From the NCBI GenBank assembly GCA_051362555.1, contig CM120642.1, positions 14,818,001 through 14,882,000 of the forward strand: a DNA stretch of 64,000 bases. The letters run 5' to 3'. The translations under genes were made by a program, and so were the position numbers. The stretch comes from Lingula anatina. Its lineage: Eukaryota > Animalia > Brachiopoda. Below, in pieces: positions 4,669 to 47,613 of the stretch (position 1 is its first letter; each line of letters opens with the position of its first letter). The notes under the pieces are model-generated. The model was not told the origin of the DNA. It did no database searches and saw only the letters and a program-made list of their open reading frames with translations.

Positions 4669-5825
4669 TGTGTCGGGAATGGAGCGTCTGTTGGCTGATG
4701 TAAGCGCCGTTCTTGAAAATATCGCAGTGCCTTCTTTGGGGAGACTTTCTTCTATCTTAGCTGTGTACTAAATGGCCACCGACGTAAGAAGTTATGAAAC
4801 CACAAAACAAACAGCGTGAAATGAAAAGCTGGGTCGACGGTGCAATTAAGTGCTGTTATTTCGTAAGCCTGTCTGTGAGGATGTTATTAATGCAGAGTTG
4901 CTATTCAATTTAGAATTACTCAAGTAGAAAGGCCTTAAATTTCGACAGACTTCATAACATTGTAATCGACGCAAATTTTCTGTACACAAGAGAAAGGTAG
5001 GTGAAAGTGGATAAAAATTATCACATAAAGAGTTGTTTAATTGAGCGGGTACAAAGGTATGACCCTTGGACGGCAACAATGAACCCCTGTGTGTGGTAAG
5101 CCATTTGTAAGCCCCAACTTCCCCTATTACCTTAAATTTATGATGAAATACACGTGTTTACTTTGGGAAACCAATCACGTTTTGGCCATATAGCTCAGTG
5201 TACTAATTATGAACTGCATAGCTATTACGATGAAATGAAATACGCTCACAATCAGTGTCACAAAACAATCAACAGCAAAGAGGGGCTCCCTGAATTAAGT
5301 TGTGGTTATATCCGCATTTAAGAGTAAGGAGTGAAGTCCCTGCTAAGGTAGGCCAAGGTTACTTTTATCTTTTAAACCACGGGACTCTAGATTTCTCCTC
5401 TAAAGTTTGTTTATTATAATATACGTTATGCAATGATGGAATGGAGCTTTGGGGTATATCACGATGTATCGGTGATGTATGCTGTCTCGTATAACAATCA
5501 CATACATACACTACTAAAAGTGTATTGATGGTTGGCAATTTCACCTATCCGTCGGAAGCGTGATATGGATATTTAGGCCTAACATGCCACAAATGTGACC
5601 GGTTGAAGTGTCCGAACTGTCACCTGTTGACCTACAAGGCTTAAAATTAGGGACTCAAGACTTTCCCAAATAGACCTATTGTATTTCAGCAGAAAAACCT
5701 TATGGGTCCTTTTAAACAAATAAAGATGTACTAGTATATTTGTATATATTTTAAGCACTATTAGCACCGTAGTGTTATTCTAATTGTTATTATCTTTAAT
5801 CATGATAGGAACCTTACTGGCAGCT
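4669..5825. promoter_or_regulatory. Shared bidirectional promoter and 5'UTR region of PDX1 and PDX2
   Basis: Lies between the divergent start codons (4668 minus, 5826 plus). Contains CCAAT at 5171-5175 and a likely non-coding PDX2 5' exon ending at AAG|GTAGG (5347/5348). Confidence 0.6.
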
Positions 5826-6939
5826 ATGCCAAATTCAGGGGAACTAAGGATCGGCATTTTAGGAATTCAAGGCGCTTTTCATGAACACAAAGTCGCCCTC
5901 CTGAAAGCCCATGAAGCCGCCAAGTCCGACCACCTCTCAGACTGGACACTGGACATCGTGGACGTACGATCACGGGAAGATGTCACTGACGATTTAGATG
6001 GACTAATACTGCCAGGAGGTGAAAGCACCACCATGAGTCTATTCCTGAAGAGAGAAGGCTTAGATACTGTTCTCCGAGAATGGATGGCGAAAAAGAGGCG
6101 AGTGACGTGGGGCACGTGCGCAGGTATGATTCTACTGGCGGAGAACATTGAGCATCAGAAAGAAGGAGGGCAATCTCAGGTATGGGAATTGTGTTAGGTG
6201 GGGAAAACAAAACCATGTACCCTCTTGAAATACGTTTATGCTACTTAATTTATCTAACGGGTATTGACTCTGGCAAGTTGTTAATTCACTTTGGGTAGCG
6301 CCCAGCAGTCATTATAAAGTTAGGTTGGTCGGAGTAACATATTTTTGAACTTAATAAATATTCAAATACTTAAAACATTATTCTAGCTTCTCCAAGATTG
6401 CAAGTTAAGGACCTAAGCAGGTCAATGATGTATGAGCGTTGTTCTTCTGAAATAAATTCTTTTATTTGACTTATAATGATCTTCATTTGGCAGATATATG
6501 TCACAATTATTTTGGTAGATCTTTATATTGAACAAAATTTGTTAGTTTAGCCAAACATTTATTTTTAAACTGATGTGATTTTTTCCAGCTGGGAGGCCTA
6601 CACGTGACAGTTTCACGGAACTATTTCGGTCGCCAGGTGGACAGTTTCGAGGCTGACGTCACTGTTTTGTCAAACACTTTAGCCGGTTCTTGTGAAGACG
6701 ACAAAACATGCAGGGGCGTCTTCATCCGGGCACCTGCCGTTATATCAGTGGATGACCCAAGGGTCAAGGTTATCGGTAGTTTGACCTTCACCGACAGAGA
6801 GCAGTCTGTCAGGTCTGTGATTGTCGCTGTGCAAGAGGAGAATACCCTTGCCACAGCATTTCACCCAGAACTTACAGACGACACCAGATGGCATAGACAT
6901 TTCTTAGAAATGGTCAAACGAAATAAAACTTCCATTTAA
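5826..6939 (+). CDS. PDX2: Pyridoxal 5'-phosphate synthase, glutaminase subunit (PDX2/SNO/PdxT), ~234 aa, 2 coding exons
   Basis: Exons 5826-6179 and 6589-6939, joined by CAG|GTATGG ... TTTTCCAG|CTG (phase 0). Motifs: IGILGIQGAFHEH, LILPGGESTT, WGTCAGMILL (nucleophile Cys), RNYFGRQVDSFE, GVFIRAP, ATAFHPELT (His-x-Glu of the class I glutamine amidotransferase triad). Confidence 0.96.
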
Positions 6940-7394: not shown

Positions 7395-7572
7395 CTTGAT
7401 TAAGACTCTATCGATTATTTAAACATTAAACATTCCCATGGAAAAAGATACAGAACTCACAAGAAAAAAACATGAAAAAAACGCTTGATTTAGACTCTAT
7501 TGATTTTTTAAACATTAAACATTCCCATGGAAAAAGATACAGAACTCACAAGAAAAAAACATGAAAAAAAAA
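7395..7572. repeat. Tandem direct duplication, ~89-bp unit x2
   Basis: AGACTCTAT...AAACATTAAACATTCCCATGGAAAAAGATACAGAACTCACAAGAAAAAAACATGAAAAAAA occurs at 7403 and again at 7492 with few mismatches. Confidence 0.9.
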
Positions 7573-8713: not shown

Positions 8714-10354
8714 TTACAGACCAGTTTCTTTCCTCTCGCCCGTTTCCTCCTTATCGTCATTCTTTATTTGTTCTTGTTCCGGTGTTTGGTCACTCGTTGC
8801 GTTTGGTTGAACGCTGCGACGTCGTTTTCGTAGGTACAGGTACGCTACCAGGCCACCTAAACCGGCGAGAAGCACGAGGAAGGAAGCGCCGACACTTGTA
8901 CCGATTATAATGCCTTTGTTTGAAGGTGATAACTTGAGGATGTTGCCTCGGCTGACGTCCGTCTCATTGGTTTCTCCGTTGGCATTCTCCGTTGTAGGAC
9001 TTGGTGTTATTGGTGCATTTTTGGATGGAATTGCGACAGTATGACTTGTTGTGGTCTCAGATGCGACTGAAACTGCGGACCCGGAAAATATCCCTATCTG
9101 TGTAGTAGTAGTTGGATCTGGACAAGCGGTTTTGTACTTCACGTACCAAGAGTTTGATGTGTTCAATGCATTGATTAGTGGGTCGGCTTGAACCTGACAT
9201 ATAATTTAAAAGAACATTTACACAATTCTTGATAATTTCGAAGTAATATAAATGTCTCTATCTCTAATTTAGAAAAACTCAAGTTTATTTGTTTCAGACA
9301 ATTTTATATTTCTCTGTAGTCGGGTTAGATTATATTACAAAAACGTACATTTTGCTCCGGGCATATTGCTATTACCCTCTATACCTTTTTGCATGTTACA
9401 TAGTGATATAATCGAGTAAAAGGTAGGCCTATTGTAAAGAAAATCCTGCTTACCTGCGCATAGGGCCTCAGACAAGTTCCCCGTCAAGTGGTACAGACCA
9501 GAAAAATTGTCAACAATGAAAGCATGGTTGGACACCGGCTCGCTGACTATTGCTTGCATGTCAATGAGCTGTGTCTTATTGCCCACACCTACGGCGTATA
9601 TTTCGATGCCCTGACTTTTTACTGGGAATGCTCTTTGAACAGTTAAGCAAAATCTGTCCATTATATCCGTCGTAATGATAACAGCTATTTTCCTGGTATT
9701 ATTACGACCCCCTCGTGAATCAGCAGGATTGAGAAAAACCGTTCTTGCAAGGTAAAGGGCTTTGTAAGTTTGACTCCCAAATAAAGAATTTTCGTGAATA
9801 GTCAGAGGCTTACTTAATGCGCTCATGACATCTGCTTCAGACCGTTTTGGATCTAGTGTTATAATTGCATTTACTGTTGGTATAAAAGATATAACTGCAA
9901 CACTATCTTTGCCCGGACGTACCTCGAAGGTATCATTGACCAAACTTTTCAGGAGATACTGAATCTTCGGGCCATCGTCAGGTTTTCCAGTAACATCCAA
10001 CAGGAATGCTATATCAGCGTTAGCGAGCTCTGAAATCACATGAAAGATACCTAAAACTACTTAACTACGTCATTTAGAAGAAATCCACAAGAATTGTAAG
10101 TGTATGCCTACTCATTACAGTATAACTGTCCAATTGTCCAATACGCTGTGTATGCAAGTTTTGTTTTTAATTTACTTTCATTTGATACACTATACATGTT
10201 ACAATATAATTAATTTTTTTCCACAGTGTGTTCGAGTAATGTTTATAATGTAAGTCAAGGCCTACTTACTGCATCCGATAGCCGTTCGGAGTAAAACGGG
10301 GAAAACTGCCACACCAATAATGAAATAAATCGCTCGAAGTTTCGTCTCTTCCAT
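8714..10354 (-). CDS. Single von Willebrand factor A (VWA) domain type I membrane protein, ~377 aa
   Basis: Exon 1, 10354-10270: signal peptide MEETKLRAIYFIIGVAVFPVLLRTAIG. Exon 2, 10029-9454: VWA (ADIAFLLD, VAVISF, TYKAL, KIAVIITTD, GIEIYAVGVG, IVSEP...HAF.VDNF). Exon 3, 9186-8714: Thr/Ser/Pro-rich stalk, TM segment IIIGTSVGASFLVLLAGLGGLVAYLYL, RKRRR stop-transfer, short acidic tail. The exon 3 acceptor is ambiguous (see findings). Confidence 0.82.
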
Positions 10355-12351
10355 GTTCGTGCGATCAGATGCACAAACGCGAAGCACAGTGTAGTGACCA
10401 ACTTGATAACCGGTAGTACTTTTTAACTCAACAAGTGCCATGAAAACAAGTGTCAATAAAATGTTATCTAATCACACAAGATTCAGGATGGTGAATTGAT
10501 TGCCTCCTTTCGATAAATAAGTTTTGATATTACTTACTGGCACACTGTTGATATCAAAATTTTCGAAATATGAAATAAAATGATTGAAGTATTGATTGAA
10601 GCGACACAGTCATAATCAAATGGCACACAATGTTTGGATCATTAATTTGGCCCTTCACTTTGTTATTACAGGTGGATTATCTGCGTGTCGATAACGCCTC
10701 ACTGGCAGAAAATAGTCGCATAGGACACTGACAGTCCCGTTGATGAATTCATAATTCCACTCAATTGAAAATTTTCATTACTGACGCCGTTTTTAATCTA
10801 GAAAATAACTTAGATTAAGATATGTCACTATGGTAGAAAAATCCTTCTTCAACGAAAAGTTAATGAAAAGGATAAAAGAAGAACATAATTATAGTTATCC
10901 CCATAATCCAGGAACATCAAATTGAAAAAATAAAACTGTTCTCATGATAAATTGGTTTATCTATTTCGATTTGTAACAATGGGTTCGAGCGTCCTTAGCA
11001 GATAACAATAATCCTAGTTAATACTCTGTTTAATTATTTTGTTCAATACGCGAAGTTTAATGAGTTTAATTATTGTGTCGCATACCAGTTTACGAGATTG
11101 AAGTCCAAAGTGTATTTATTCAACAAGTTGCTGTTGTCAGGAAGCATTATCAAAACGTGTATGTTTGAAATGAGTTTCTTTATAGCAACGTATCAATGGA
11201 TTAATTTCGCTAACAATTATTATGAATTAAGACAAATAAAATTAACTTCAGCCACCAACGGCGATAGAAACATGCAATTAGGACTACAGGTGTGTGAAAC
11301 AATGGGCGCTACTTTGTTGCCATTTCCACAACATGGAAACAAGATCGGTTGTTTGTAGACATTGTGAAGAAAGAAATCTACGATGTCAGTGTTCTCGGTA
11401 CAGCTGAAGTATATTATAGTGAGGCATGACATAAATGCGTAGATATATGTGTACCAGTGTCTTAGACCACAAGACACGAGCATACCAGGTTTTTCTACAT
11501 TCACGTTTTGTGTTGCCAAACGTTTGAGATATGCGCCCCCATTTTATCGCATTATGTTTGTCATTACGGTGGCTTTGCATCCTTGAACAAACGTAACTCG
11601 TAGTAGAAGCGGAACTTCATAGACTGGGATTTATGTATAATTCCCCCCCCCCCCCCCCCAAAGAAAAGAGAAAAATAACGAACAGATAATTCGATAATTG
11701 AGGAGACGTTCAATTGAGTCGGTGAACACAAGCGTGCATTGGTAAAAAAACGTCCGTTCTTTCACGCGATCTTTTTGCGAACATTCAACAAATTAAATTA
11801 TAAGTGGATGGAAAAAAACTATGCATATAACCACCAATATAAGTTATTAGAATGTATCGAATATTATCGACTAAACCTTTTTTTAATTTACATGTTATTG
11901 ACCCCTGGCAATTAAAACTCTTAGTTCCATAGCTTTCCAAACATCCATGTTGACTTAATTACAAATCTGATATCCCAAAAACTCAAGCTCATGCACCCCA
12001 AGGACGCCCTTCGACCCATCTACCACAGCCTCCACCAAAAAGATAAATACACTTTTAATCAGCGCTGGGCTACACTTCAACTTCAGAGGTCATACAAGGA
12101 CATTTTGAACATGCTCAATGTGCACGTGATTCAAGAAAGATGAAAGACCGAATTAAGTCATTAACACGTAATAGTTACTGTAACAGAAAACCTTAGGCAC
12201 CTATGGCCTGCCCAGTCGAGAAAATGTGCTATTTCACTGGGTGCTAATAAAAAAGTCATATTTTTGGGGGTTTGGGAGACATGTACGTTATTGACGGGGG
12301 TCAGAACAATCTCTACAACAAAAGAGAGTCAAATCTTCAAAGATATTGCAG

Positions 12352-12385
12352 GTGAAACCAAGGAGTTATAACTCCTTGGTGAAAC
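12352..12385. mobile_element. 20-bp perfect palindrome flanked by a 7-bp target-site-like duplication (P/Galileo-type footprint or mini-element)
   Basis: GTGAAAC (12352-12358) + CAAGGAGTTATAACTCCTTG (12359-12378) + GTGAAAC (12379-12385). Confidence 0.6.
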
Positions 12386-14111
12386 TAGGAAAAGACTTAA
12401 TCAGACCACTTTATATGGAGGTTCTTTTTTTTGAAAAAGTGGAACCTTCATATACCTAGATAAAATTTAACCCAGAGGGGACCTTTTCCCGACAAAAAGG
12501 GGGTTCTTACGCACCCCCTAACCCACCTGGCTACGGGCCTGCGTGAGATTGATATTTAATGGCCAATTGTTATCCACTACCTACGTAGGTCAGTTTAAAA
12601 AAAAACTCAGATACATTTTATTTCACTTTTAATATCTAAAAAGGAGCAAATTAAACATAAAGGCTTGTTATAACATGCAGAGTTTTTAAAAATTCTTTAA
12701 ATCATGGCGCATTTGCTCAATCGGTACATGTATGACGAGCTTCTGTCTTTAACAGCTACAGACGTAGATATGCACAATCAAATACACAAGGCATCTTTTC
12801 TTTATGGATCTGTGTGCAGATAACTTTTAAATCTTTAACTCTTCGTTGCTCGTGAGCTAATGGCATGACAGAAGTTTGTTCTTGGACTTGTCTCCTTGCC
12901 AAAAGGGATACGTTTATTTATTTATTTATTTATTTATTGCTACTTAGTCAAGCCTCAATTCTAAGTACAGTATTCTGTCGCGTTTGCTTCTTTGTTTTTG
13001 TCTTTGTTTTTTTTCCTTTTTGCCTGTTTTGTTTTTTTCTTTCGTATGTTTATTTCTTTTGCTTTTGTTTATCCGACTGATTACAGGCTGCAGTTTTTGA
13101 TCTATCTCTTTGAAATTTAACAGAGAAGTTAAATAATTAAAGTATTATCTTGGCACCAGAGTCTTTTGACATATATAGCTTTTTTTCAATAACGACTGGA
13201 AAATGAAAATATCTAAATAATCTCCATTTCTCATTATTGGCCAATATGGCAGACTCCCTATACTCTCTGTCCATTTGTTTTTTGTTTTTTTTTTTCTCAT
13301 AATTACAGCAATATGGCGTCTATTCCCATGCACAGTTTTCGAGACAAAGAAGTGACATTTTGCAGATTTATTAAGGTAAATACGGTCTATATAAAAATAA
13401 GTCATATACACCATTCATTTTGCAAAGGGCAGAACTTCAGGAGTTTTTTTTTCACTACAGAAACCACAGCTCCGAGAGTACCCGTTGAACAAAACAAACG
13501 GGGACATTTTGAAACCCTGTTCGAAAATCGGATCAGAGAGGTTGACGAGTGACCCACATATTTCATGTCCCCGATGACGTCTGCCTGTATCCGCTTTGCG
13601 TAAATAGGATGTACCAGTAGGTTGATTTAGATTTTGCCATATCCGCTCTCAGTCTCTCAGAGAGAGCTCTTATGTATTTATTTATTTATTTATTTATGTC
13701 TTTTGTGAAAGCGGGGCAACTGCTATTTAGAATAATGTGTGACCACTAAAATTTGGAACAACTTTCTTTATCCTATATAGAAAAATACACATGTAACTGT
13801 GAGTTTTTTGAAAGACAGTTATCACGAAAATCAAAACAGACTCGTATATGCAGTGCTATAGTGTATTTTAAGAGAGAATTTCCAGATCACAAGTAATGAC
13901 AATGTCAATTTCAAATCAAAGAAGAATCAATTTGAAGAAATAGATGTACAGTCAAAGAGGCACTGAAATATCAGCGCTCAGATTGCATTATTGCTACTAG
14001 GATTTTGTTTCTTAGATTACATTAAGGATGCCTACTGGACAGCCATCCATCAAAGTGTCCATCTATTGACCACCCCTTGGTCTTCCAGTTGGCCTTGGTC
14101 CTCTTCTCCCT

Positions 14112-15760
14112 TTACGCTTGTGGGTCCTGGTCCTCGTCATCCCCCTTCAAGCATTTCAATGCCAGCATTTTCAATTTTTTTACCTTTCCCATGATACTGC
14201 GCCCGTCTATGCCGTCCTCTGGCACACCGGTAGGCTTTGGTAGGTTTTCCAAACATCCCCTTACTCTTTCTTTGAGCTCATCTGGAATTTTGGCAACCAA
14301 GCATCGGAGCAGCCTCGCTTTTCCGTCATTGTTTGCTGGCTCACCGGTGGGCTCTGGTCCGTCAAAACATTCGCGAACTTTTGCCACAAGCTTTTTCAGC
14401 TTCATGAGCCTAATAAACAATAATAATAAAAAAATATTTATAATAGAATAATAGCATGTCTATAATATTGTACAACCCATTGTACAAAATAAAAATGTAT
14501 GACATGTAGTAACTATATTAGAGAAAATTCAGATGTTTGACATTACCATAATTAATTTACTTCACAGTATATATACAAAACGCACTATTTCATTCAAATG
14601 ACATTTTTTAATTACAAGTTCAATATAATATTCTACCTGTAGCTTCACGTTTACAGGGTATGCAGAAATTGTAGGTCCTGAATTTTGCAGCAACAACAAA
14701 AAATCGTACAATGGTTATATATTACCTAACCAATGGTCCTGGTCCTTCTCCCTCTCCACGCTTCGCTGGTGTATCCATCGCTTCTGGTTGTTGCGGGTCC
14801 TGTGCATCGTCATCTCCCTTCAAGCACTTCAAAACCATCATCTTGATTTTTCTGCCCTTTTCCATGATATCGCGCTTGTCTGTGCCGTCCTCTGGGTCAC
14901 CGGTAGGCCTTGGTAGGTTTTCCAAACATCCCCTTACTCTCTCTTTGAGCTCATCTGGAATACTGCCAGCCAAGCATCGGAGCAGCCTCGCTTTTCTGTC
15001 ATTGTTTGCTGGCTCACCGGTGGGCTCTGGTCGGTCCAAACAATCGCGAACTTTTGCCACAAGCTTTTTCAGCTTCATGAGCCTAATAAAAAATTAATAA
15101 TTAAAATAATAATAAAACAATAGTATGCCTATTATAATGTACATCCCATAGTACAAAATAGAAATGTGTGACATGTAGTAATTATATTAGAGAAAATTCA
15201 AATGTTTGACATTACTATAATTGATTTACTTCACAGAATAAAAAAAACGCACTATTTTATTCAAATGCAATTTTTCGTAATTTACAAGTTCAATATAATA
15301 CTAGACATGTAGCTTCACGTGTACAGGGTATGCAGAAATTGTGGGTCCTGAATTTTGCAGCAACAACAAAAAATCGTACAACGGTTATATATTACCTAAC
15401 CAATGGCCCTGGTCCTTCTCCCTCTCCACGCTTCGCTGGTGTATCCATCGCTTCTGGTTGTTGCGGGTCCTGTGCATCGTCACCTCCCTTCAAGCACTTG
15501 ATAAGCATTATCTTGATTATTCTGCCCTTTTCCCTGATGCCGCGCTTGTCTGGCAGACCGGTAGGCTTTGGTAGGTTTTCCAAACATTCTCCCACTTTCG
15601 CTTTGAGCTCGTCTGGAATTTTGCCAGCCAAGCATCCGAGCAGCCTCGCTTTTCCGTCAATGTTTGCTGGCTCACCGGTAGGCTCTGGTCGGTCCAAACA
15701 TTCGCCAACTTTTTCAAGCACTTTCAGCTTCAAGAGCCTAAAAAAATTAATAAAATGATA
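14112..15760. repeat. Tandem exon+intron duplication array, ~670-bp unit
   Basis: Introns 14410-14725 and 15083-15395 are near-identical, e.g. GACATGTAGTAA.TATATTAGAGAAAATTCA and CAGGGTATGCAGAAATTGT.GGTCCTGAATTTTGCAGCAACAACAAAAAATCGTACA. The three exons are highly similar at DNA level. Confidence 0.93.
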
Positions 15761-18679
15761 AAAAAAATAATAATAATAGAACGACAGTCTGTCTGTACGC
15801 GGCAAATATAGAACCTGGACTTAGAATTAAAACTATACAACGGTTACTACAAATTTTTATGACCACAGTGTTGTCACCTTCGTTAAAAAACGGGGAAGGA
15901 CATTTTGGAATATGAAAAACACCGTATAATACATGTACGTATAAATGGCATTCATGGAATAATGTGAATGAAACATGACTGATATTGTGACTCGTGACAG
16001 AAAATCAAAGAATTTTTTAACTTGTAAATTGAAAAATGATCGATTTCCGAGGAAACTCTGTAACTAATGTAGTAAGATTTTATCAAGAAAATTGGCATTA
16101 TTCACGACAAAAGCGAGAACCACAATTCGGTGCCAGCGTCTTGTGTAGGAGATACGAGACCCTTATTACGATGTTTCATTAAAAATGCATTTTTTTTTGC
16201 CTCTTTTCTGATAAAAACAGAGGTGAACTCTTCAAACAATTCCCGGTCACCAGATAGTGGTGCTTATTTTTGTGATTGAATATACATTAAATGGGACTGA
16301 AAAGTGTTCAGGTGAGGGTGATCTGTTTAAAAGCGATATTAGGGAACCATTCCCACAGATATTTGGATCGATCTAACTCCCTGGGGAGTCTCACTAAATT
16401 GCTATCAACTTTACCGGCTTAAATGTCTGTCACGCCTAGTAAAGCTGCCAGGGGGTAATTATCTTTACCCCTAGCCGATTCGGATAGCAAATTAAGTGAG
16501 ACTCCCCAGGAAGTTAGACAGATCGATCTAGGCATGGGAATCTAGTTTCCACCCTAAAAACGCTGCTGCTTCGTCAAAACGTTGAGTTAGCAAATGTATT
16601 TTTGATGCGCCATCACTATTTCATAACATGACTTTTGTTTGGCATTATTTTAGCAGATGAAGAAACAATTCTAACGTATCGATCTTCCTCAAGACATGCT
16701 TAATATAGATATACCCTATTACTAGTCAATCAGTGCTGTGTGGTTTTTACAAACCAGCAGCGTGATTATACAGACTTGACATTTAATATGGAATATTTCG
16801 GTTTCGAAGGTATGCCTAGGTGAAAATGCATTCTTTTTTTCACAAACTCCGATCTCATATAAGATATGTGATTGGAGAAGTGTGTAGTCAGGTGTCTCGC
16901 TACCAATTAACTGAATACCAGGTTTGTTGCGCTGCTGCATTATGTAATATGCAGTGATTTAATTGGGTAGTGCTCCTTTGGGCTGGTCAAAGCTTGGGTT
17001 TGGCAAAGCATGGTTCTTTCAAAAAAGTATCCATATGTCGGCAACTACTGCATAGAATAATTTAAAATTTTGCATGCAAGTGGTCTGGTTTGCTGTGTGT
17101 AAAATGAGCTATGCAGTGCTTTACAAATTTGTTTATATGTGGCAGAATGGCGCGAAAAAGACAGGCATTGCCAGACAGATAATTGTGCCAAACGAAACGG
17201 TCCGCACAGTTTTATAAAGTAATGCCCAGACTGATGTACCTACACAGAGGCCACACCCAATGTGTTGAAATCTTACCACCAGGGCACAGGACCCACTGTC
17301 TTTCGGGATATGCAGTTGCAACTAAACAAAAGCCACCCAGTCCGTTCAGAATGAGGGGTAAATTGCCACCAAAATGCACTTTTCAAGGCCCTTAGCGAAC
17401 ACCAAACTGGTTTTTGCAGGTAAGAATACCAGACGACCTCCAAGGAACCCACTGTAAACAGCAAAACATCGTTGTATGTTTCTTTAATGAATTGGGGACC
17501 TTGACTGTTTCTGGGTTGAACACTGAAATCTCGTGGCTTTCTGTATTGAGGTCAGATTCCACCTGTACCGCTCAACAGTCAAAACAGAGTTTACAGACAT
17601 CCAGAAGAGGCCAACGACGAAGCGTGTGCCGCATCTAAAGTGACTTAGGTCATTAACAGCGTCAGTATTTGGAGTGGAAAGCACATTGGTGCCAAAACAC
17701 CAATGGTAGTCATCGACGAAAACCTGAACCAGATCAAATAAAGAAATAATCTGGGAACCATTTGGCTATCATTTGATAGGGGGCAACTTAGGAACAATTT
17801 TAGGTTGCACGGTGAGATTGCCGGTTCTTACAGAGCACTTTTAAAAGCAGATTACTTACAGAACCAAGGGAATGAGCAGCTACCTTGGTCATCAAAATCA
17901 CCATATTTGAACCACATAGACAATATGTGGGTAGGCCATTACTCACCAAATCAATGGCCTACATGACCTACAACAAAACTGGACCAAATTGGACAGATTT
18001 TGACCGATGCCTGGAATGTTATTCCAGATTGAACTTTAAAAACCTATCCCAAGGAATCCGTTGCCACTTGAGAGCGCTGGTAGCAGCCAGAAGAGGTCAT
18101 GCGTAACAGCGGCCGTTACTGTGACTAGACACTGACATGAGGGTCCTTTCTGGCGCGTGTAACTCCTTTACAGACAATAATTTGGAAAATATGGAGGTCC
18201 AAAATATCTCTTTTAATGGTTGTCGTCTGACATAGAATAGGCAATGTGTTTTTGTTTGCTTCTCTGTCGAATTCCATTAATGAACTGATGTCACAATGAC
18301 ATCAAAGAGGTAATTTAAAGTTGTTAAAACACGATTTTAATCCTTATTTTAATTTATCAGTCAGCTAAATAGGAAAAAACTGATGAAAAATGATTTGGAA
18401 AAAAATATTCCATATTAAATGTCAAGTCTGTATATACCTGTCTTAGAATTTAAAATAATCAATATATCCCTTATCATTTTAAGAATAGGTCGTCAAAATT
18501 GCGTTTATGCCATCACTTGTCCGTCATGCATCAATGACACATCGTAATACTGAAGCGTGAAAGATATGTACGTACATGTAAGCAAAGATAAATATTAAGA
18601 AAAAAAGCACTTACATGGGCCCGCGGGCTGAGGCCAAACAGACGACAGCGGCCAAAACAACGAGTGTTGCGAACTTCAT
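14112..18679 (-). CDS. Secreted protein of unknown family with three tandem 4-Cys helical modules, ~353 aa, 4 coding exons
   Basis: Exon 1, 18679-18615: MKFATLVVLAAVVCLASARGP (classic signal peptide, AT|GTAAGT, phase 2). Phase-2 exons 15737-15396, 15082-14726 and 14409-14112 each encode one module (KV.ECL..PEPTGEP...KARLL.CL...IPDELK..V..CLENLP.PTG.P...K..K....KCLKG). Total 1062 nt, in frame. Confidence 0.88.
16350..16540. mobile_element. MITE/foldback element in intron 1 of the repeat-protein gene
   Basis: Inverted arms TCTAACTCCCTGGGGAGTCTCACTAAATTGCTATC (16372-16406) and GATAGCAAATTAAGTGAGACTCCCCAGGAAGTTAGA (16483-16518). The outer terminus GATCGATCTAGGCATGGGAA (16521-16540) recurs at 8300-8319. 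Confidence 0.75.
17222..18106 (+). mobile_element. Decayed Tc1/mariner transposase pseudogene (intronic, antisense to host gene)
   Basis: Fragments in shifting frames: MPRL at 17222; IEVRFHLYRS (~17545-17575; compare FSDESRF..Y..DG); DYLQNQGNEQLPWSSKSPYLNHIDNMW (~17850-17930; compare WPS.SPDLNPIEN.W); LRALVAARRGHA (compare C-terminal RAVI.ARGGHT). Multiple stops and frameshifts. TIRs not identified. Confidence 0.8.
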
Positions 18680-18740
18680 CCTTGGTCAGTTGAACTGTGT
18701 CTCTACCCAGAGGAGTGATTTTATCAGATTTTTCGGGATC

Positions 18741-18747
18741 TTTTATA
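18741..18747 (-). promoter_or_regulatory. TATA box of the secreted repeat-protein gene
   Basis: TATAAAA on the minus strand about 60 nt upstream of the ATG at 18679, consistent with a TSS near 18715 and a short 5'UTR. Confidence 0.6.
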
Positions 18748-20593
18748 GGATATTATTGATTGTTCACCTGTTATGTTTGGGGAGAAGGGTGTTCCTTTCC
18801 GTCAAATCACTACATTGGATTAATAAAATAAAAAAGGCCTGATCCAACATACATATAATTGTGACTCACCGTGATGTATTTATTCATATGGTTTAATTTG
18901 ATATACAGTATATACTATGAGTACACAATCCATCAAATTATGGTCGTTCTAATGGTACAATGGTCTTGATTTATAAAGTATTTTTTAAAACCACTTATAA
19001 TATTTGAAAAGCTGTGATTACTTCCTTTTTATCCTGTTTGTTGAAAGAAAATACACAAGGACAACTGTGCTAATGACGCATATCAATTTCAACTGATCAA
19101 ACGAAGTTATTTGTTCAGGTAGTAGCCTTTTAAAGATATACCGAACCCTGTCGGTCGGGTAATTACGTCGGAAATTACCAGTTGAAGTAATAAATAAGTA
19201 TTTGCGGTAGTCAACCAGCTCAGTTAAGTCAGAATCAGTTCTTAGTTAATGCTTATTTGTGACTTCTATAAAGATCCACGCTAGTTTACTTGTTTCTGCA
19301 TTTTTCAATTTAGATAGGGAATTTATCAACAAAATTAGAACACTAGTAAAAAGCTCGCCGCTTTCTTTTGACGATGGCACTAGTGTTAACTTATGATTCG
19401 TTGTGCATTTCTGTGTCAGTAAGATCTATCTCGTTGGTGTAGGAATTTTTTAAAGCTTTCATTATTCAAAACTGCTTTTTTTTTTTAAACGGTAGCCACT
19501 AACGTGTGAAACAATGGACGGGCGCGGGTATCGCTCCTCTTACTAACTAACCAACGAAGTAACAAACGAACTGAATGTGGACAGACAGGCATCTATAACG
19601 ACTTAGGTTTTATGCAGTAAATTAAGGTTGTCATTTATCATGGGTTGCACAAATGAGGAAAACGTTTAAAGTCATACAATTAATGAGTGTTAGTCTTTCA
19701 TCTTTCATATGCCAAAAAAGTTTTTCCTGAAATTTTCAGAATTTTTCTCCATAATCGCCGAGGTTAATCATATCCAAAACTATTGACAAAATTATCTAAA
19801 TACTAAATTGATTAACTAAAATTAAATTAAATTAAATTTAAAAAGAAAATTCTAGGAGGGGACCCTGCAACTATAGACCCAAGACTATAGACCTGCTGAC
19901 ACTCTATGAACGGATTTTACACCTTCACTATTTTATCATTGCACTTATAACGATCAAATTGGTACATCGCAGAAGCTAAACCTACAATGTAGCCCAGTTC
20001 AAAAAGAGGGATGCCTTGACACGTATTTATGTCTAAAACCTCATGATAACGCATACATAATACTTTTTAGTAAAAGTCCGAGAGTTTCTTTTATGGGGTT
20101 TTCTTTTCCTTCGTCCTGTTTTCTTCTTTTCTTTTCTTTTCACTTCTTTTCTTTTCTTTTTTTTTTCACCTTTTTTCCTTTTTTTAATTATTTTGTGTGT
20201 GTGTGGGGGGGGGGGGGGGAGAGAGGGGGGGGGAGGGGGAACTGCCAGTTTCGGTTTCAGGTATTTTTTTTCGTTTCCATTTTGGATCTTTACAATTATG
20301 TTGGCATTGTGTTGCTGGTAAATGTATAATTCGACAAAGGGTCTGCACGGTAAATACCAGCACAAGTACAAAGGCCTACCGGTAATTTACCGTCACCGTA
20401 GGACTAATCTATAATGCAACAACTTTTATTCTCTTTTGGGAATAAAACATTGAATTGTTGATTTGGTTAAAGTACTTTTTATGAAACAAATTGGGTGATT
20501 TCCCAATTCAGATTAAGATAAACATGTGAACTTAAAGTAAAAAAAAACTTTTTTTACAACTATTGGCAAGAGCACGGTCGCAGATGTAGCCCC

Positions 20594-23500
20594 ATGAAAA
20601 CGAGGCCACTGTGCGGAAGAGAACTGAAACCGAGGCTGCAGTTTAACGGGATGGATGCAGACTTCACCCAGCTCCGAAGTACGCCCAGTAAAATTAAGAC
20701 CGAAAAGGAGCATATTGAAAATGGCCAGAGCGTCAAGACTGGTTGCAACATAATTAACATTAGATCAGTAATTAGAGAGTCAGTATTAGGTTGGTATATA
20801 CGCGCACAGCGCTCTTAATTCCCACTGGTTTCTTTCGCCGGCCAAAAATGGGGGGCCTTTCAAGTTCCAAAAGAAGTTCTTATTAGAAACACACAAGTGC
20901 CCACACTAACTGTTATGAGTATGAGCTGCTCTAAATTACACTTATAAAAAGCAGATACCTTTGTAGAATGAAGCAAGCCCATTTATGCAGTTAATAACAA
21001 GTCCTACAAGTTACTAAAAGTATCTTATGCATATATATTTGTTACATGCAAAGAGTAAAGATCAAAATTTTCTTTTCCATGTTGTTTTTAATTTGTTCCC
21101 CCTCCAAAACTGAGCAAAAACATGACTAAACCACAGGTTAGATTGCACTTCTTTTTCCATAGTACAAACATTCATTAGTTAACCAAGTGTTCTTGTAATA
21201 TATGGTCCCTGGCATGTGCTAGCCCTTATGAAAAAGTCCTACAGGAACCTATGGGACTTTTTCGTTAGGGCTGTTGTGCTATAACATCAAAATAGTGTAA
21301 GCACATCATATCAAAGACTTTATACAGGAGTGCAACAAATAAATTTTAATGTTATCTAGTCTAATGACTTAATGGTTTGGTAAACTAAGAATTATTCACA
21401 GGTCAGAGACTGTTTGTTCTGATATATTTTGTTTCATGGGTAAGTATCAAGATCTGTCAGAGCAGGGAAAATGGTCTCTACCAGTTACCAGTATGTTGCT
21501 TAAATAGAATTTATCGTGAAATCTTGATCCTCAAATGTTGAATTGTTGAACCTTCAGCTGGAACAGTGGTCTTGCTTACATACTTTAAAAAATTTCTTTT
21601 TTGCCAGTTTTGATTTAGATATTGGAACTTAAATACCTTTGGACTGCCCAAATAATTATATCAATCCTGCTTTATTACAGAGAGTCCCTTGATCTAAAAT
21701 TATGCCTAATAGTAATCCAAGTTGCATATGAAGGACTCCTGAATCATCCTAGCTCGTCTCTTGATTATTCTTATAAATGCAGTGTCTTTATTCATTTTAG
21801 GATATGTGTTCTGGAGCCTGTTCCAAGGATTGGGACCTATGATATGGTTTTATCCCCTGAATGAACTAGAAATCTCAGGATATGAAGTATTCTGCCTGTT
21901 GTGGCTAAGTCCAATTGTAACCTGTATTTCTCCAGTATTTCATCTCATTCAACACCCATGGGTGCTGGGCGGCCTACGTTTATTTATGGTCGGTTGCATT
22001 GCATCTTTCCAAGCACCAACAACATTACAGCGCCTGATACTTCTGGCCTTGGGAAATGGGGCAGCCATGTTGGTTTTGGTGGCCACAGTGTGGAAAGATT
22101 CTACATATCAGAGGTATTATTTTGGTGTTATTTCAGTTAATTCTCCTCGTTTATGTTTGTAAAATCCAAACACTCTCATTCAGTTTTTTTTTTCTTTTGA
22201 AAAATGAGGATTATATTTTGTATGTGTTTGTGAAATGTAAGCCTTTTTAGTAGGAAATTTGATTATAGCTGTGTATGTAGAAAGTTAATTTTTGGAAATG
22301 CAACTTAAAGCGTTATGAATTGATGATTTGATTTCTGGGTTGACTTTAAAAGACTATCCGTGTATACCCCAGGTGACTGTTTCTGCTCGTGAGATAACTA
22401 AATTTTAATATTATTATTATAATATTCCAAGCCTGGATATTACATTTCAGATACCTGACATTTTGGGGTCTTATGGTGGGCTTCTTTGCAGTTTTGGCAG
22501 GGAGGATATGGTTCACCTCTTTTATCCCAACATGGTGGGACAATCCAACCAATTCAGCAGTCCTTGCAGTAGGACTCATAGCTACAGTAGACAAAATAAT
22601 GTCTGGTATGTGAAGAAAAGGGAGATATTGCAGGGTGTTTGTGTAGAATCATCATGATACCAAAGTTATGAAATTGTAACTTCCAAAAATAAATTAATTG
22701 ACAAGTACTGTTTTTAGTTCAGTCCTTCACAATCAGTTTCCATGTATTTATATGGTGCTTAAAAGAAGAACAGTTGGAATCAAAAACTACTTGTCGATGA
22801 GATTGTAAATAGAAGTTTATATAAAATAATTATAAAACACAAGCTGAAATGTTTTCATACTGTTAGTTATGGCCAAGTTAGTTGCATAGGGTCCTTGTCC
22901 CTACACCACCTACTGGTCATGGAGTAACAATATCTCTAGATTCACATTAGTCTGATGAAGACCTATGGACAGGTTTGCTGTAAGGTAATTGTATGAAAAC
23001 ATTTCAGCTTGTGATTTATCATAATTATATAATTATGATATTATCCAACTACCAAGCTAATGGACATTTTTTGTTAAATAAAACTTATTTATAAAAATCC
23101 GGCACAGGCATAATTTATCCTGATATGCCAGTGATAATATTATTTGAGTCCTCTCAATAGTTATGATCAACAGTTTTTCCTCTGGTTTTCTATTTTCTTT
23201 AATTTCTTTTCACAACCAAGGTGATGACAGTCTGCCAGTCCAGAAAATCTCTTCCCCAAGGCCTTATTGGCTGTCCACTGGCGTAGGCTTTGGTAGCCTT
23301 CTCTATCTTACTCACTGGATATTTGGAGAAGTTTCCATAGCAACAAGATGGGTGGTGACTGGATACCCTGACCATGGCCCTCAGCCTAATCCCTGGGGGT
23401 AAGAGAGAGATGAGAGCTCCTCTTTTAGATTTTAAATGAATTTATGAATGAATAAAAATAATATACAGTACTAGCATTTGTAACTAGCAAAGTGCTATTA

Positions 23501-26500
23501 GGTTATATATAAATAGTAAAGACCTAGTTTTGTATGTAGTTCTTTTCTTCTCTTGAAGCAAATCTGAAAAGTTTTATGTGGCATATTTGATAGACAATAA
23601 ACTATTTTGTATTGATCTGTTAATATAGGAACAGTGTCTTTGTAACAATAAACCATGACCTTACAGATGGGATGTTTGTCCTAGATAATTTTAATCTTTG
23701 TGCTTTTTGTTATAAATATAAATAAATTAAGTGCTATAATTATTCTTGTTTACATCCTCAGAAGTGAAAATATCTCAATTTCAGGGCTACCATTCTTATT
23801 TCCCTAGCTTTTGGCATACTGGTATGCTGCAGGTTTTCTGCATCTAAAATTTGGTGGATTGATGGAGCTCTAAGCCTGGTGGGCCTGTACTATTTGCCCA
23901 CATGGCAAGGATTTGCATGTAAGTTGTGGCAGTCTGGGGCACATATGTACAGTATGCTGATAAATGGGTTCTTGCTCACACATTTTTGTTTTATCAACAT
24001 TACATTTTTAATAAAAAAAATTATTTAATTTGCAAAAAAAAAAAAAAAAAAAAGAACAGCATGTACTTCATGAAAAATAGAAAACAGAAATAACCAAAAA
24101 ATATGTGCTTGCACAAGATAAAGCAGTTTGTGTGTACTGTGCTAGATGGGAATGATGTATACAGTATGTGCTAGTGGAGGCAGTGTGTGTGCGTGCGTGT
24201 GATTCTCCAGCTAGTATACTTCCATTCTATTATTGTTCACAATATTGTTGCATTTATATTGATATCTGTGTAGATTCTATATTTTTACAGACTTAATGCA
24301 AAATGTACTTAATTCTTCAAATCTTGTAGGTGCTAACCTCCTGGCTATTTACACCATGTCCATCTGGCCAGAGATGATTGACCGACTAAGCAGGTGTCCA
24401 GCGGGACCTACACTGACCCTATCTGTAGTCACTTATCTGGTAGAGATCTTCTTTTCGGTGTGGACTGTGGCATACAACTTTGTCCCCGGAGGAGAGTTCA
24501 CTAGAGAACACACTGACTATCTTATTGGCTTCATGGTGGTATGCTTAGGCTTGGGACTCTTTACAAGTAAGTTGCAACCAATGACTGAATATTTAACTGG
24601 CAAAACATATAGGATGATGTACATATTCTTGTGATATACAAACGTGCTAATTCTGTGAATAAGCAATACTCCGAAGATGCTTAGTGAACTTGCTTTGACA
24701 ATGAGGTTTGTTTGCTTTGATTGAAGGAAATATCTCAGTTTTGTGTAAATATATGATTGATTTTCTGAGGATGTTATCAGGGAAAATGGGCCTAATATGT
24801 TTCTTTTTCCTGCAAAGGCTCAAGTGTAAAAGTCCCTGGCCACACAGCCTTCAGTTTGAAGAAGCCCAATGGCACAGTGAAGGGAGCTCTATTGTGTATG
24901 GTGTTACTGGGTCTGGGAGGATTTCTGTCAAGGCAGGACCCTAACAGATATAATCATCCAGTGAAGGTATCAATAACATGCTATAGAAATGGTCCACTGT
25001 GTTAAAAAGTCTCATTCACTTATAACTTTCTTTTTTTTTTTAAGTACGAGAAATTGTCAAAAAATGTACATGTTTTTGTATTGAGTTTTAAGCTTTTAAA
25101 AATGGATAATTTGTTTAGTCATATTTCCCTAATTTCACTGAATTTTGGTTCATATTCCCAGTATTCACCCAAGACATTCCGTGCCGCTATATGGACGTAC
25201 CACTTCGGATATGATAACAAAGGATGGCCAAGTTTGGAGAGGTCCTTTCAACTATTAAATGATACAGGTAAGGGGAAAAACTAAGTCAAGGATATGTGCA
25301 AAATGACAAGTAAGACCACTAAATGTAGATCCCGGACTGCACTGACTAACTTGGAGAGGTTCTTATGGTGGAGAGGTTCTTCTTATGGTAATATAATAAA
25401 GGTGATGAGGGAGTTGAATATTCATTTGGAGAATTTCCTCTGTTGTTGATGTTTTATGGTGAATTATAAGAGTTGTTAGATTTTATGTTCAGAAATGAGG
25501 AAAATGTAGGGTAATGAAAATTAACTAACATTTATTTAATCATGAATCTTCATTCTTCAACCCTGGAGCAGATGGGGAGAGGGGATCAAGTAACTGTGGT
25601 GCATTTATGAATGACTAACAATATTCAAAATCTCAGGTGCTGACTTCATTACTCTCCTGGAGAGTGATGCATCCAAGCCATTCCTGGGTAATAACGACCT
25701 TGGGATGTGGTTAGGGGAGAGGCTGGGCATGTATGTGGACTTTGGACCCGCTACAAAAGACCACACTTGGGGGTAAGAATTGGGTCATGTTTAAGTTAGA
25801 CCAGTGTTACAGTGTAGATTAAAAAATGTGGTGTGTAGGTCATTAGTTCAAGTAGCTGTATAAAATGGTGAGTGTTTGCTGTGTGAAGGGGACACTTTAC
25901 TTTTCCAGACTCATACATGATAAATTGTACAAGGGCTGAAATGCTGATGAAATTAGTTTTTGTAGTAACAGTATTACCCTTTTCTTATGAATAAAAACGA
26001 ACCGATGAATTTTTTTTACCTTCTTTCAACCCGGTTCAGAAACTTGAAAATAGTATTAAAACAGTTCTTACACTTCTATATAGGTCCTACTGTAGTTTTT
26101 CTCTTACTTGTGAATACATTTCCTGTGTTTGTGAATGTTTTGTCTGCCACTTTCTTTCATCCTGATATCATTTTTGTTTTACAGAAATCTTATCCTCTCC
26201 AAGTATCCCATTGTCAAGTCTAAACATCATCTGCTTCCTTCTCCACATGGTTAGTATTTGTATATGAATATGATGCTTTCATGTCAATAGTGTGTGCTGT
26301 TTATCATTGTAGTATACAGGTACTGTATTTCTAAACCTACATTGTGTATGTGTTTAAATTCATAATAAAAATATTCCATATAATCAGCATTTTTCTTTCT
26401 TCTTACAGGTGAGCTCGCTCCTGGCATTACAGCTACAGTGAACTATAGCGGTAGTCTAGTGGACTTTGTGGTCACACACATGGGCAATGACCGGGATGTA

Positions 26501-45135: not shown

Positions 45136-47613
45136 TTACTGAAAACTTGCCTGAAAGTCAGGTTAACCAAAGAATGACAAGTAGGAAACTATCGTCTGAC
45201 TTGTAGGAACCAAAGAAATGATATCGCTTAAGCTTTAAGTGAATTAAGGCACACATTATTCAATAGGCATCATCTGAGATTACCCAAAGTTTCGCGACTT
45301 TACGTAAAATTAAGCAAGATTTCGTGGAATTTAGAGGCAATGGGGGTCAGAAGTAATGGCAGACTAGCAATTGCGGTGCAGCAACGAATAAAAAGTGACA
45401 GAATTTTTCCACGGATATTTTTCTTGTCGCTCTGTTAAAAGTTTTGTCGAATAACAGTCTATTGCAAAATAATATGCACTCAGCATATTTTGTCACTTAA
45501 GTGTTATTTTTCTTATTGCTTTCTAAAACTACATCCCCCCGCGCACGAAGTTTCACCAAAGTTTCACCATTACAGACAAAAAGTTAACCCATCTTCTACG
45601 CGGATTTTTACGTTTTCTGGCCTTGACGTCATCTCAGATAATTCCCATTCATATTACCGAATTTTCATTCAATGACAACTTAACTTGCAGTTATTTGTTA
45701 ATGGTTTTAAAAGAACTCTGAATCGTGCGTTTTCCACCTGTTGTCCAGCTCCCGTTCGCTCGCCCCAATTTTCCCACATATTCCTTCCAGCTACGAAAAC
45801 AATCCCAGGCTAGCATGTGGTATAGAAAACATCGAACCAGGAACGCGGCACGAATTACGTGGACAGGCAAATATAAGCAACGCAGCAAAACAACGCAGAG
45901 ATCACCCCATTCCACCTGTTGCAGGGCTGATGCCGTGAATAGATGCTAATTTGATTCACCCAACTGAAAAACAAAAAGTCAGAGAAGGGTTATACTTGGC
46001 CGCACCACTAACATATATGCTGTATTAAAACAAATCAAGTCAAATCAAGAAAGTTATTTTCTGACCCAGTGGATGGCTTGACCAAGTGGCGTTCAACAAG
46101 CACAATATCAAAATCTCAGCCTGAGCTGATACAGAGAATAACGCTATAAAATCAGGCTGTCCACGCGCTAAGTACTGCGTTAGGCTCAATATTTCGTATG
46201 AAAATCAAAACAGACAAAAATGATTAAAAACAAATTCGGTGTAGATGTTAATCTTAACTATGCATTACATACGAAAATTAACACAAAAATAATGAAAAAT
46301 AACAATAATAAAAATACAAAGAGGCTAACTCTCTCTCTCTCTCTCTCTCATATGATTGACCTTGATTCACTTATGGATGTTGTTAACCAATGGGCCTGTA
46401 AAAAAAAGGGGGGGGGGTAAGGGGGTGGAGTAAAAAAAACTCCCCACAGTAATCCATTGTTAAGAACCTATCTGGACCCAGTAAACTCTGTGGCCGCAAA
46501 AGCAGGTCTCTCCTATTCTTTTCGGTACGCTTTATATATGTGATAGGAAATGAAAAGTATCTTATGTAAAAAGCCACTATAACGAAATCTAACACTCAAA
46601 GTTAAAGTATCTGTTAATCCCGGAAGCCCCCCGTGTGCTGCCGTAGGCGAATGGACATTTTAATTTATTTTGTTGTGAACAAATTCTAAATTCTGACCCA
46701 AGATGAAATATAAGTGATTTCTACTGGATTATAGGTGTGTACTCTGAAAATGGCAGCGATGAAAACCCAGCTGTGTAAAGCTATGGAGAGGAAGATATAA
46801 ATGTCCAGCTATTGTTACACGAGTTTTGAGGGGTTTAGAAATTCATCATCCATTGGATAGACTGGAAAACGTATTTGCTTAAATCGTTTGTTCACCATGA
46901 ACCTCTCCGACCGCCGTGTTTGTCTGGACACAAAAGCCATGCCGTTTAAAGAATAGAATTATGCTGATGAAAAATAGAATAACAATACAAACACATACAC
47001 GGGGTACCGATTACAGCTTATATGGACGGGCAATTAATATCAATACGGCGATATTAGTAAACTCGAGCATACGGCCTTAACTCCTTTGATCCAGAACTGT
47101 ATGAAGAGATCGATCTAACTTCGATTTTCACCGTACTGAAAGACCTGCATAATTGAATGCTGAAAGATTTTATCATACGAAACCCGCTTTATAAAATTTT
47201 GAAGTCAGATGGAAAATGCGGTGAATAGTCACGTGAAAGGTTCCATTTCCTGAGTCCCGATACAATCAAAGAAACGACATGGCACTGCCTCGGATAATAC
47301 ACGCTACACAATTAACAGCCGAAACTAAAAGGACTACTTAAAATACCTGGGATACCTGCGGCACATTATTATTCATAAAGTGAGGAATGTATATTATAAG
47401 CAAATAATCAGAGACTGAAGTCGATCTGTAACGGCTGTCGGTTGGAGTTTTTAGTTTATGACAAGCATGAAAGTTTATATGTATTTCCCTACCCGCACGA
47501 ACGCTAGACCCGCACCGTCGCACATAGTTCTCTGCATTCTATTCAATTAATCGCATGTGATATCTGATGCCTAGTAATAACACGGGAGAGCTGGGGAAGA
47601 TGGTGATCGTGCG

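What the first reader, a model, noticed from the sequence alone, without database searches (positions are those of the whole stretch)
14112..18679. Novel secreted polyprotein of tandem 4-cysteine helical modules with dibasic linkers
Seen: TATA box, signal-peptide exon, then three phase-2 exons each encoding a ~100-119-aa module. Each module is itself two similar halves (V-x-x-C-L...P-x-P-T-G-x-P...C-L), suggesting two amphipathic helical hairpins each closed by a disulfide. Modules are joined by acidic/Pro linkers containing KR (DTPAKRGEGEGPGP), with extra DKR sites inside modules 1-2. I recognise no family. Inference: a prohormone-convertase-processed precursor that releases small Lys/Arg-rich helical proteins. 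The architecture is reminiscent of nematode polyprotein lipid-binding arrays or saposin-like precursors, with no homology claimed. Candidate roles are antimicrobial, lipid/pheromone-binding, mucus/adhesive or biomineral matrix.
Basis: partly seen in the sequence, partly recalled or inferred. Interest (0 to 1): 0.7.

Follow-up and report, generated by a model that had tools for sequence, protein, structure and literature searches.

The report
Brachiopod orphan repeat-module secreted precursor
A lamp-shell (Lingula) gene with no relatives found outside its own species is spliced into a message for a likely secreted protein of three or four near-identical four-cysteine modules, which is probably sugar-decorated and probably cut into small units that may bind fatty surfaces.

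Summary
The gene is real: four exons on the minus strand, a 353-aa frame, splice joints, a 5' end 25 nt below the TATA box and a poly(A) site seen in run X1. It is the uncharacterised Lingula anatina gene LOC106181260, which has four modules in RefSeq against three here. The two-half structure, four invariant cysteines and linker KR are confirmed. No homologue turned up in protein, family, Atlas or fold searches.

- The DKR sites inside modules are allele-specific, so unlikely cut sites.
- There is no furin/NPA motif.
- Cutting at KR would give near-neutral units (net -3 to +3) with a basic core and acidic tail, not cationic ones.
- It is absent from two published shell proteomes.

New: every module has two invariant P-x-P-T-G-x-P loops that match GalNAc-transferase preferences. 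A seventh copy lies in the 3' UTR within an out-of-frame relic of the KR linker.

Best reading: a tissue-restricted secreted glycoprotein precursor grown by exon duplication, probably cut at KR (about 55%), with a surface- or lipid-binding role (inferred). It resembles nematode polyproteins in design but fails membership.

The parts
18741..18747 (-). TATA box (TATAAAA)
   Evidence: 25 nt above the 5' end seen in X1
18680..18716 (-). 5' UTR, 37 nt; likely transcription start at 18716
   Evidence: an X1 contig leaves the genome at 18716 into 19 adaptor-like letters (the adaptor label is recalled)
18615..18679 (-). Exon 1 CDS: predicted signal peptide (about residues 1-18) plus 3 residues, phase 2 end
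   Evidence: joint to 15736 in X1; 21 of 22 residues equal to RefSeq
15738..18614 (-). Intron 1, 2877 nt, mostly dispersed repeats; no further module copy
   Evidence: (tblastn)
15396..15737 (-). Exon 2: module 1 (Cys gaps 21, 15, 29), acidic tail and KR linker (KR codons 15433-15428; allele-specific internal KR 15547-15542)
15083..15395 (-). Intron 2, 313 nt, part of the duplicated unit
   Evidence: 279 of 309 aligned bases equal to intron 3
14726..15082 (-). Exon 3: module 2 (Cys gaps 21, 15, 33), acidic tail and KR linker (KR codons 14763-14758; internal KR 14877-14872)
   Evidence: joint 14725 to 14408 in X1
14410..14725 (-). Intron 3, 316 nt
14112..14409 (-). Exon 4 CDS: module 3 with a shortened acidic tail and TAA stop
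   Evidence: 98% equal to the last RefSeq module
14063..14119 (-). Out-of-frame relic of the KR linker across the stop codon, with a seventh P-x-P-T-G-x-P motif at 14098-14078
   Evidence: 25 of 38 nt ungapped identity with the end of exon 3 (19 of 32 after the anchor, shuffle p 0.0006); frame lost through a 29-nt gap
13849..14111 (-). 3' UTR, 263 nt; variant poly(A) signal AATACA at 13867-13862; poly(A) site 13849
   Evidence: X1 contig with poly(T) loose end; the genome beyond it has no A run
14220..15688 (-). Six coding P-x-P-T-G-x-P loops (15688-15668, 15571-15551, 15030-15010, 14913-14893, 14357-14337, 14240-14220), predicted O-GalNAc sites
   Evidence: acceptor preference from PMC4245494

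Best explanation
This is a spliced, polyadenylated Lingula gene built by tandem duplication of one module exon, encoding a likely secreted precursor whose predicted four-helix, four-cysteine modules are probably O-glycosylated, probably cut apart at the linker KR, and would most likely act as small lipid- or surface-binding units in a tissue-restricted secretion. Steps: (1) shown: transcript, exon-per-module design, 3 versus 4 modules between two sequences, invariant Cys and Pro. (2) Predicted: signal peptide; four helices per module with floppy linkers; two disulfides per module, most simply C1-C2 and C3-C4; GalNAc on the two loop threonines. (3) Inferred, about 55%: a PC1/PC2-type convertase cuts after KR and a carboxypeptidase trims it, giving 11-13 kDa units with a basic helical core (+4 to +8) and an acidic tail (-4 to -7). 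(4) Inferred, about 35%: the aliphatic, almost aromatic-free bundle binds hydrophobic ligands or anionic lipid surfaces, with tail and glycans keeping it soluble. Repetition would raise the yield of units per message.
For: Transcript joints, 5' end and poly(A) in X1; low-level spliced reads in X9 and X10. AlphaFold gives four helices per module, with pLDDT under 50 across the KR linkers and no confident packing between modules (pTM 0.25). Across 7 modules, 4 of 4 Cys and 7 of 7 Pro columns are invariant while 25 of 54 other polar columns vary; of 24 hydrophobic columns 11 vary but only 2 admit a polar residue. K and R of the KR are the only basic residues of the 30-residue linker, kept in 5 of 5 internal linkers and in the 3' UTR relic. 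Thr with Pro at -3, -1 and +3 is favoured by a snail ppGalNAc transferase (PMC4245494 passages). Local disulfides with gaps of 20-22 close helical hairpins in Sol g 2.1 (PMC10573061 passages), a precedent only for the 21-residue gap here.
Against: No peptide, tissue or binding data. KR is no commoner than chance overall (4 against 4.3 expected), and all linker copies descend from one, so this is a single observation (chance of two basics being adjacent 0.067). No [KR]-x-[KR]-R motif. A Thr three residues before the KR could be glycosylated and hinder cutting (inference). Helix amphipathicity is not clearly above shuffles (p 0.049-0.52 in 8 helices). The module model is weak (pLDDT 61.9, pTM 0.47) and gave no coordinates to check a cavity or Cys pairing. 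dN/dS between module cores is 0.72-1.22 on few changes, so constraint outside Cys, Pro and the core pattern is weak. The tissue restriction rests on one small library against seven runs, three of them laid at a threshold that may miss diverged alleles.
Confidence: 0.38

Rival explanations
1. An uncleaved beads-on-a-string secreted glycoprotein (mucus, cuticle or cement component) whose basic cores and acidic tails let chains associate by charge; KR is incidental and module number tunes length or valency.
For: KR at chance frequency; no furin motif; the last module keeps an acidic tail although nothing follows it; predicted O-glycan loops; copy number 3 versus 4.
Against: The only two basics of the linker are adjacent and in KR order within a predicted disordered stretch. 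No Tyr, His or Ser-Gly and very little Ser/Thr, unlike typical mucins or adhesives (comparison recalled).
Confidence: 0.27
2. A membrane-active antimicrobial or deterrent precursor working like saposin-like or nemapore proteins, with the acidic tail masking the basic core until release.
For: Core net charge +4 to +8, helix 4 net +6/+7 with the highest moment in module 2; multi-domain nemapore precursors exist (PMC10506718 passages); fast divergence.
Against: Four, not six, cysteines; no saposin Pfam hit; whole units near neutral with no dibasic site to shed the tail; single-copy gene with no paralogue found.
Confidence: 0.15
3. A reproductive secretion (egg coat, sperm or spawning cue) that evolves fast within the genus.
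For: Orphan status, dN/dS near 1, reads with 5-13 differences in runs X9 and X10, patchy expression.
Against: No tissue information; paralogue dN/dS near 1 fits relaxed constraint and gene conversion equally well.
Confidence: 0.12
4. A shell matrix (biomineral) protein.
For: Luo et al. found many novel Lingula shell proteins to be basic and lineage-specific; a nearby gene encodes a VWA domain, a common shell-protein domain.
Against: None of the 14 novel shell proteins matches length and acidic content (353/472 aa, 17-18% acidic). The accession and six peptide motifs have 0 hits in the 2026 shell proteome supplement while a control accession has 10.
Confidence: 0.06

Closest known systems
RefSeq XP_013421042.1 / LOC106181260 (Lingula anatina, uncharacterized, 472 aa)
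   Same: Same gene: signal exon 21 of 22 residues equal; modules 93%, 92-94% and 98% equal.
   Different: Four modules instead of three; internal DKR in 1 of 3 matching modules; no function assigned; accession found in 0 papers.
Nematode polyprotein allergens (ABA-1; PMC3079579)
   Same: Secreted tandem helical units of similar size, each from an internal duplication, disulfide-stabilised, with basic sites between units.
   Different: No [KR]-x-[KR]-R motif, no Trp, four Cys rather than two, four predicted helices rather than seven, one intron per unit, acidic tail and PTG loops; no sequence hit.
Saposin-like proteins, prosaposin and multi-domain nemapores
   Same: Small cysteine-stapled helical modules in a multi-module secreted precursor.
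   Different: Four Cys with gaps 21/15/29-33 rather than six; no SapB hit; long Pro-rich loops.
Insect odorant-binding protein fold (Sol i 2, bee pheromone-binding protein)
   Same: Top Foldseek rows and a VIA Z of 5.3; helical hairpins closed by disulfides with gaps near 20.
   Different: Scores at noise level (E 1.5-1.6, TM 0.29-0.30; rmsd 4.5 over 78 residues); three disulfides and five or six helices there; no sequence match.

Membership tests
Nematode polyprotein allergen (NPA) | Tandem units in one secreted precursor, each unit internally duplicated | tested here: met
   definition from PMC3079579 passages
Nematode polyprotein allergen (NPA) | K/R-x-K/R-R cleavage motif between units | tested here: not met
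   0 such motifs in the window protein and in RefSeq
Nematode polyprotein allergen (NPA) | Invariant Trp15 and two Cys per unit | tested here: not met
   no Trp in any module; four Cys
Nematode polyprotein allergen (NPA) | Seven-helix fold with two cavities | tested here: inconclusive
   four helices in a weak model; fold searches without a clear match
Nematode polyprotein allergen (NPA) | Fatty acid and retinol binding | not testable with these tools
   needs a binding assay
Saposin-like (SAPLIP, nemapore) | Six cysteines, three disulfides per domain | tested here: not met
   four Cys in 7 of 7 modules; definition from PMC10506718 passages; no SapB row in Pfam scans
Saposin-like (SAPLIP, nemapore) | Saposin fold | tested here: inconclusive
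   low-confidence model
Insect OBP/PBP and Sol i 2 | Six cysteines, three disulfides, five or six helices | tested here: not met
   four Cys; definition from PMC10573061 passages
Insect OBP/PBP and Sol i 2 | Shared fold around a hydrophobic cavity | tested here: inconclusive
   Foldseek E 1.5-1.6, TM about 0.3; VIA Z 5.3, rmsd 4.5, 78 aligned
Lingula shell matrix proteins | Peptides detected in shell extracts | tested here: not met
   no match in Luo 2015 Tables S25-26 as read or in the 2026 supplement, with a positive control; absence from a proteome is weak evidence
Convertase-processed precursor (PC1/PC2 type) | Signal peptide and KR pair in an exposed linker | tested here: met
   the convertase rule is recalled
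Convertase-processed precursor (PC1/PC2 type) | Actual cleavage at the KR | not testable with these tools
   needs proteomics

The most novel reading that the evidence does not exclude
Lingula has independently invented a polyprotein of lipid-binding units: a new disulfide-stapled, O-glycosylated four-helix carrier family, multiplied by ongoing exon duplication with copy number still varying, cut at KR, and convergent on the nematode polyprotein strategy.
Probability: 0.2. Interest if true: 0.65.

Novelty: new variant of a known kind. Interest (0 to 1): 0.4.

Why it matters
Tandemly repetitive polyproteins of folded units are rare. PMC3079579 describes the lipid-binding kind as found only in nematodes and the repeat regions as nearly intron-free. 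A brachiopod case built one exon per unit would be an independent origin caught in progress: 3 versus 4 modules, homogenised linkers and a readable relic in the 3' UTR. It would also add a small new secreted domain from a phylum with few characterised secreted proteins. If it is uncleaved it is still an undescribed lineage-specific glycoprotein, of interest mainly to brachiopod specialists.

Tried and rejected
No whole genome is held, so paralogues were sought only through protein collections that hold the RefSeq protein and by tblastn in the window.

Homologue searches: longer lengths, 1 hit of 172 candidates; near lengths with P0005, only itself among 7998 scored; module profile, 0 of 577; phmmer over 1.84 billion proteins, 3 hits. 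Of those three, P0006 (cysteine-poor Pro/Val repeat) and P0007 (short repeat, hhalign probability 26%) were rejected as repeat-inflated. Metagenome scan: 599 pattern matches, 0 confirmed.

Families: Pfam 0 for three single modules. Whole P0005 gave Rtt106_N 26.2 bits against a cut-off of 26.3 (best stretch 19 residues), PDC10_C 19.7 against 27.3 and DUF5623 12.5 against 35. NCBIfam gave two rows far under cut-off. PDB sequences gave PDCD10 at E 1.2 and 0.02 over one helix pair and nothing for half-modules. All rejected: short amphipathic matches summed over repeats, to non-secreted proteins without the Cys pattern.

Atlas: no usable feature hit and no structure row over its bar. Fold searches: best Z 6.7 to dynamin stalks, within the tool's noise range for helical bundles; no saposin or NPA row among those shown, which excludes nothing. 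Rfam: 0 in 12000-21000. The run index listed no RNA holder. Origin of introns 2-3 from the 3' UTR or intron 1: only an AT-rich 47-54 nt match at the acceptor end. No complex prediction was obtained. Earlier findings: none.
Full report
GENE MODEL. The finding's coordinates bound a minus-strand CDS of four exons (18679-18615, 15737-15396, 15082-14726, 14409-14112) with three GT-AG phase 2 introns. It reads 353 codons without an internal stop. TATAAAA lies at 18747-18741. Residues 3-15 are strongly hydrophobic (mean 2.94) and end in an A-x-A motif, and no later 19-residue window exceeds 0.43. A cleaved signal peptide is therefore predicted from the sequence; SignalP was not available.

TRANSCRIPT. 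Ten runs were listed and 8 of 10 were laid. Contigs of X1 cover the four exons (bin depth 13-167) and none of the bins wholly inside introns. They join 18614 to 15736 and 14725 to 14408 with CT..AC ends, leave the genome at 18716 into 19 adaptor-like letters (label recalled) and end in poly(A) at 13849, 19 nt below AATACA. The exon 2-3 joint was not among the joints shown. X1 also holds a module end reading as in RefSeq module 2 rather than the window (3 contigs).

EXPRESSION. Of seven RNA runs, X2, X5 and X8 (laid at 90% likeness) gave at most 1.2 depth in bins within module exons. X3 and X6 (80%) gave under 0.5 over exons 3-4. X9 and X10 gave low depth, with 5-13 differences per read and module-to-module joints in 3 and 2 reads of X10. 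The neighbouring SNO gene had depth of about 0.2-5 in those four runs. This suggests restricted expression, but tissues are unknown, contig depth is a poor measure and the 90% threshold may miss diverged alleles.

IDENTITY. The one real homologue is XP_013421042.1 (LOC106181260, Lingula anatina, uncharacterized, 472 aa). It has four modules; the window's three are 93%, 92-94% and 98% identical to their counterparts. Whether 3 versus 4 is polymorphism or assembly error is open, though X10 joints also point to another arrangement. Three word-indexed searches, phmmer over 1.84 billion representatives, a metagenome scan, Pfam, NCBIfam, PDB sequences and the Atlas gave nothing credible. The closest miss was Rtt106_N at 26.2 bits against a cut-off of 26.3, with a best stretch of 19 residues in a four-fold repeat. 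Other brachiopod and phoronid genomes could not be searched directly.

MODULE ANATOMY. Each module has four Cys with gaps 21, 15 and 29-33. The two halves align with p 0.0002-0.0008 in 4 of 4 modules tested and share V-x-x-C, P-x-P-T-G-x-P and C-L. Over seven modules all 4 Cys and 7 Pro columns are invariant, and only 2 of 24 hydrophobic columns admit a polar residue. AlphaFold predicts helices at 2-16, 29-40, 43-54 and 69-88 (pLDDT 61.9, pTM 0.47). In the whole RefSeq chain the same four helices recur, with pLDDT under 50 over the linkers and pTM 0.25. Helical moments were not clearly above shuffles (p 0.049-0.52). Fold searches were inconclusive: Foldseek best E 1.5; VIA best Z 6.7 to dynamin stalks and 5.3 to Sol i 2. 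Cys pairing could not be read from the model. C1-C2/C3-C4 follows from the half-repeat and has a precedent in the 20-22 residue disulfide gaps of Sol g 2.1 (PMC10573061, passages).

GLYCOSYLATION. There is no N-glycan sequon, Trp, Tyr or His. Two Thr are invariant, both in P-x-P-T-G-x-P, with Pro at -3, -1 and +3. A snail ppGalNAc transferase favours Pro at -3, -1, +1 and +3 (PMC4245494, passages); the same paper notes no strict requirement and that charged neighbours generally lower activity. O-glycosylation of both loops is a prediction.

PROCESSING. For: the KR pair is the only basic content of a 30-residue acidic, Gly/Pro linker and stands in 5 of 5 internal linkers. Against: KR is at chance frequency overall (4 against 4.3), the copies share one origin (adjacency by chance 0.067), and no [KR]-x-[KR]-R motif exists. 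The internal DKR is EER, DER and DKR in RefSeq modules 1-3, so it is not a conserved site. Cutting at the linker KR would give units of 105-117 aa and 11-13 kDa, net -3 to +3 in 7 of 7, each a basic core (+4 to +8) with an acidic tail (-4 to -7). The last module keeps a tail too, so the tail looks like part of the unit and not a mere spacer (inference).

HISTORY. The repeated unit is exon plus intron, about 670 nt. Introns 2 and 3 match at 279 of 309 bases, and a linker stretch is almost identical between units, as expected from recent duplication or gene conversion (inference). dN/dS of module cores is 0.89, 0.72 and 1.22 on 5.5-13 synonymous changes: too few to claim positive selection. Across the stop codon the DNA is colinear with the linker (25 of 38 nt ungapped; 19 of 32 after the anchor, p 0.0006). 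In the linker's frame it reads KR followed by a short basic stretch with a seventh P-x-P-T-G-x-P; the motif occurs 7 times in all six frames of the window, 6 of them in modules. A 29-nt gap shifts that frame to the present stop. The simplest reading is that the last module once carried the KR linker and a short tail, so the KR is older than the present end. One X10 joint (2 reads) has a one-base different spacing there, which weakens the frame argument slightly.

COMPARISON. NPAs are cut at K/R-x-K/R-R, keep Trp15 and two Cys, fold into seven helices and have few introns in the repeat region (PMC3079579, passages). This gene shares the design but fails the motif, Trp and Cys tests. Saposin B domains have six Cys (PMC10506718, passages); this has four. 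In Luo et al. 2015 (PMC4595640; main-text passages, supplement search and part 9 of 24) none of 14 novel shell proteins fits length and acidic content. In the 2026 shell proteome (PMC13425148; abstract, section 8, supplement searches) the accession and six peptide motifs have 0 hits while a control accession has 10.

LITERATURE. A full-text search for three accessions found 0 papers and a five-term search 0; three further searches were seen as listings only and showed nothing on this gene. Subscription papers, bioRxiv supplements and figure images were not searchable, so a description elsewhere is not excluded.

VERDICT. This is a real, lineage-restricted secreted-type precursor of a so far unassigned helical module. 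Cleavage at the linker KR is a little more likely than not, and a lipid- or surface-binding role is the leading but untested function. Novelty: new variant of a known kind (tandem repetitive polyprotein). Interest 0.4.

Noticed in passing
window 16349-16541: MITE-like element in intron 1 with 52-nt inverted arms (79% complementary); reads from elsewhere pile on it in 3 of 3 RNA runs.
   Followed up: partly
window 16767-18433: A 1.7 kb dispersed repeat in intron 1 with sharp ends, covered by diverged reads in X2, X5 and X8; no ATG ORF over 72 aa.
   Followed up: partly
window 5784-6939 (+): SNO/PDX2-type glutamine amidotransferase gene (PF01174); intron 6177-6585 spliced in X6, X9 and X10.
   Followed up: partly
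window 8714-10060 (-): Exons with a VWA domain (PF00092) followed by a Thr-rich stalk and a likely transmembrane segment; almost no reads in four runs.
   Followed up: partly
window 21743-24634 (+): PGAP2IP/CWH43-type membrane protein exons (PF23022, PF23021).
   Followed up: partly
window 47581-49359 (+): A 592-aa low-complexity open frame without a Pfam hit, probably a long disordered exon.
   Followed up: no
window 7395-7570 and 29079-29254: Short tandem duplications of 89 and 97 nt.
   Followed up: no
window 15392-15397 and 14722-14727 (-): The donors of introns 2 and 3 place an in-frame TAA right after the linker, so intron retention would give shorter one- or two-module proteins; no read evidence for it.
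   Followed up: no
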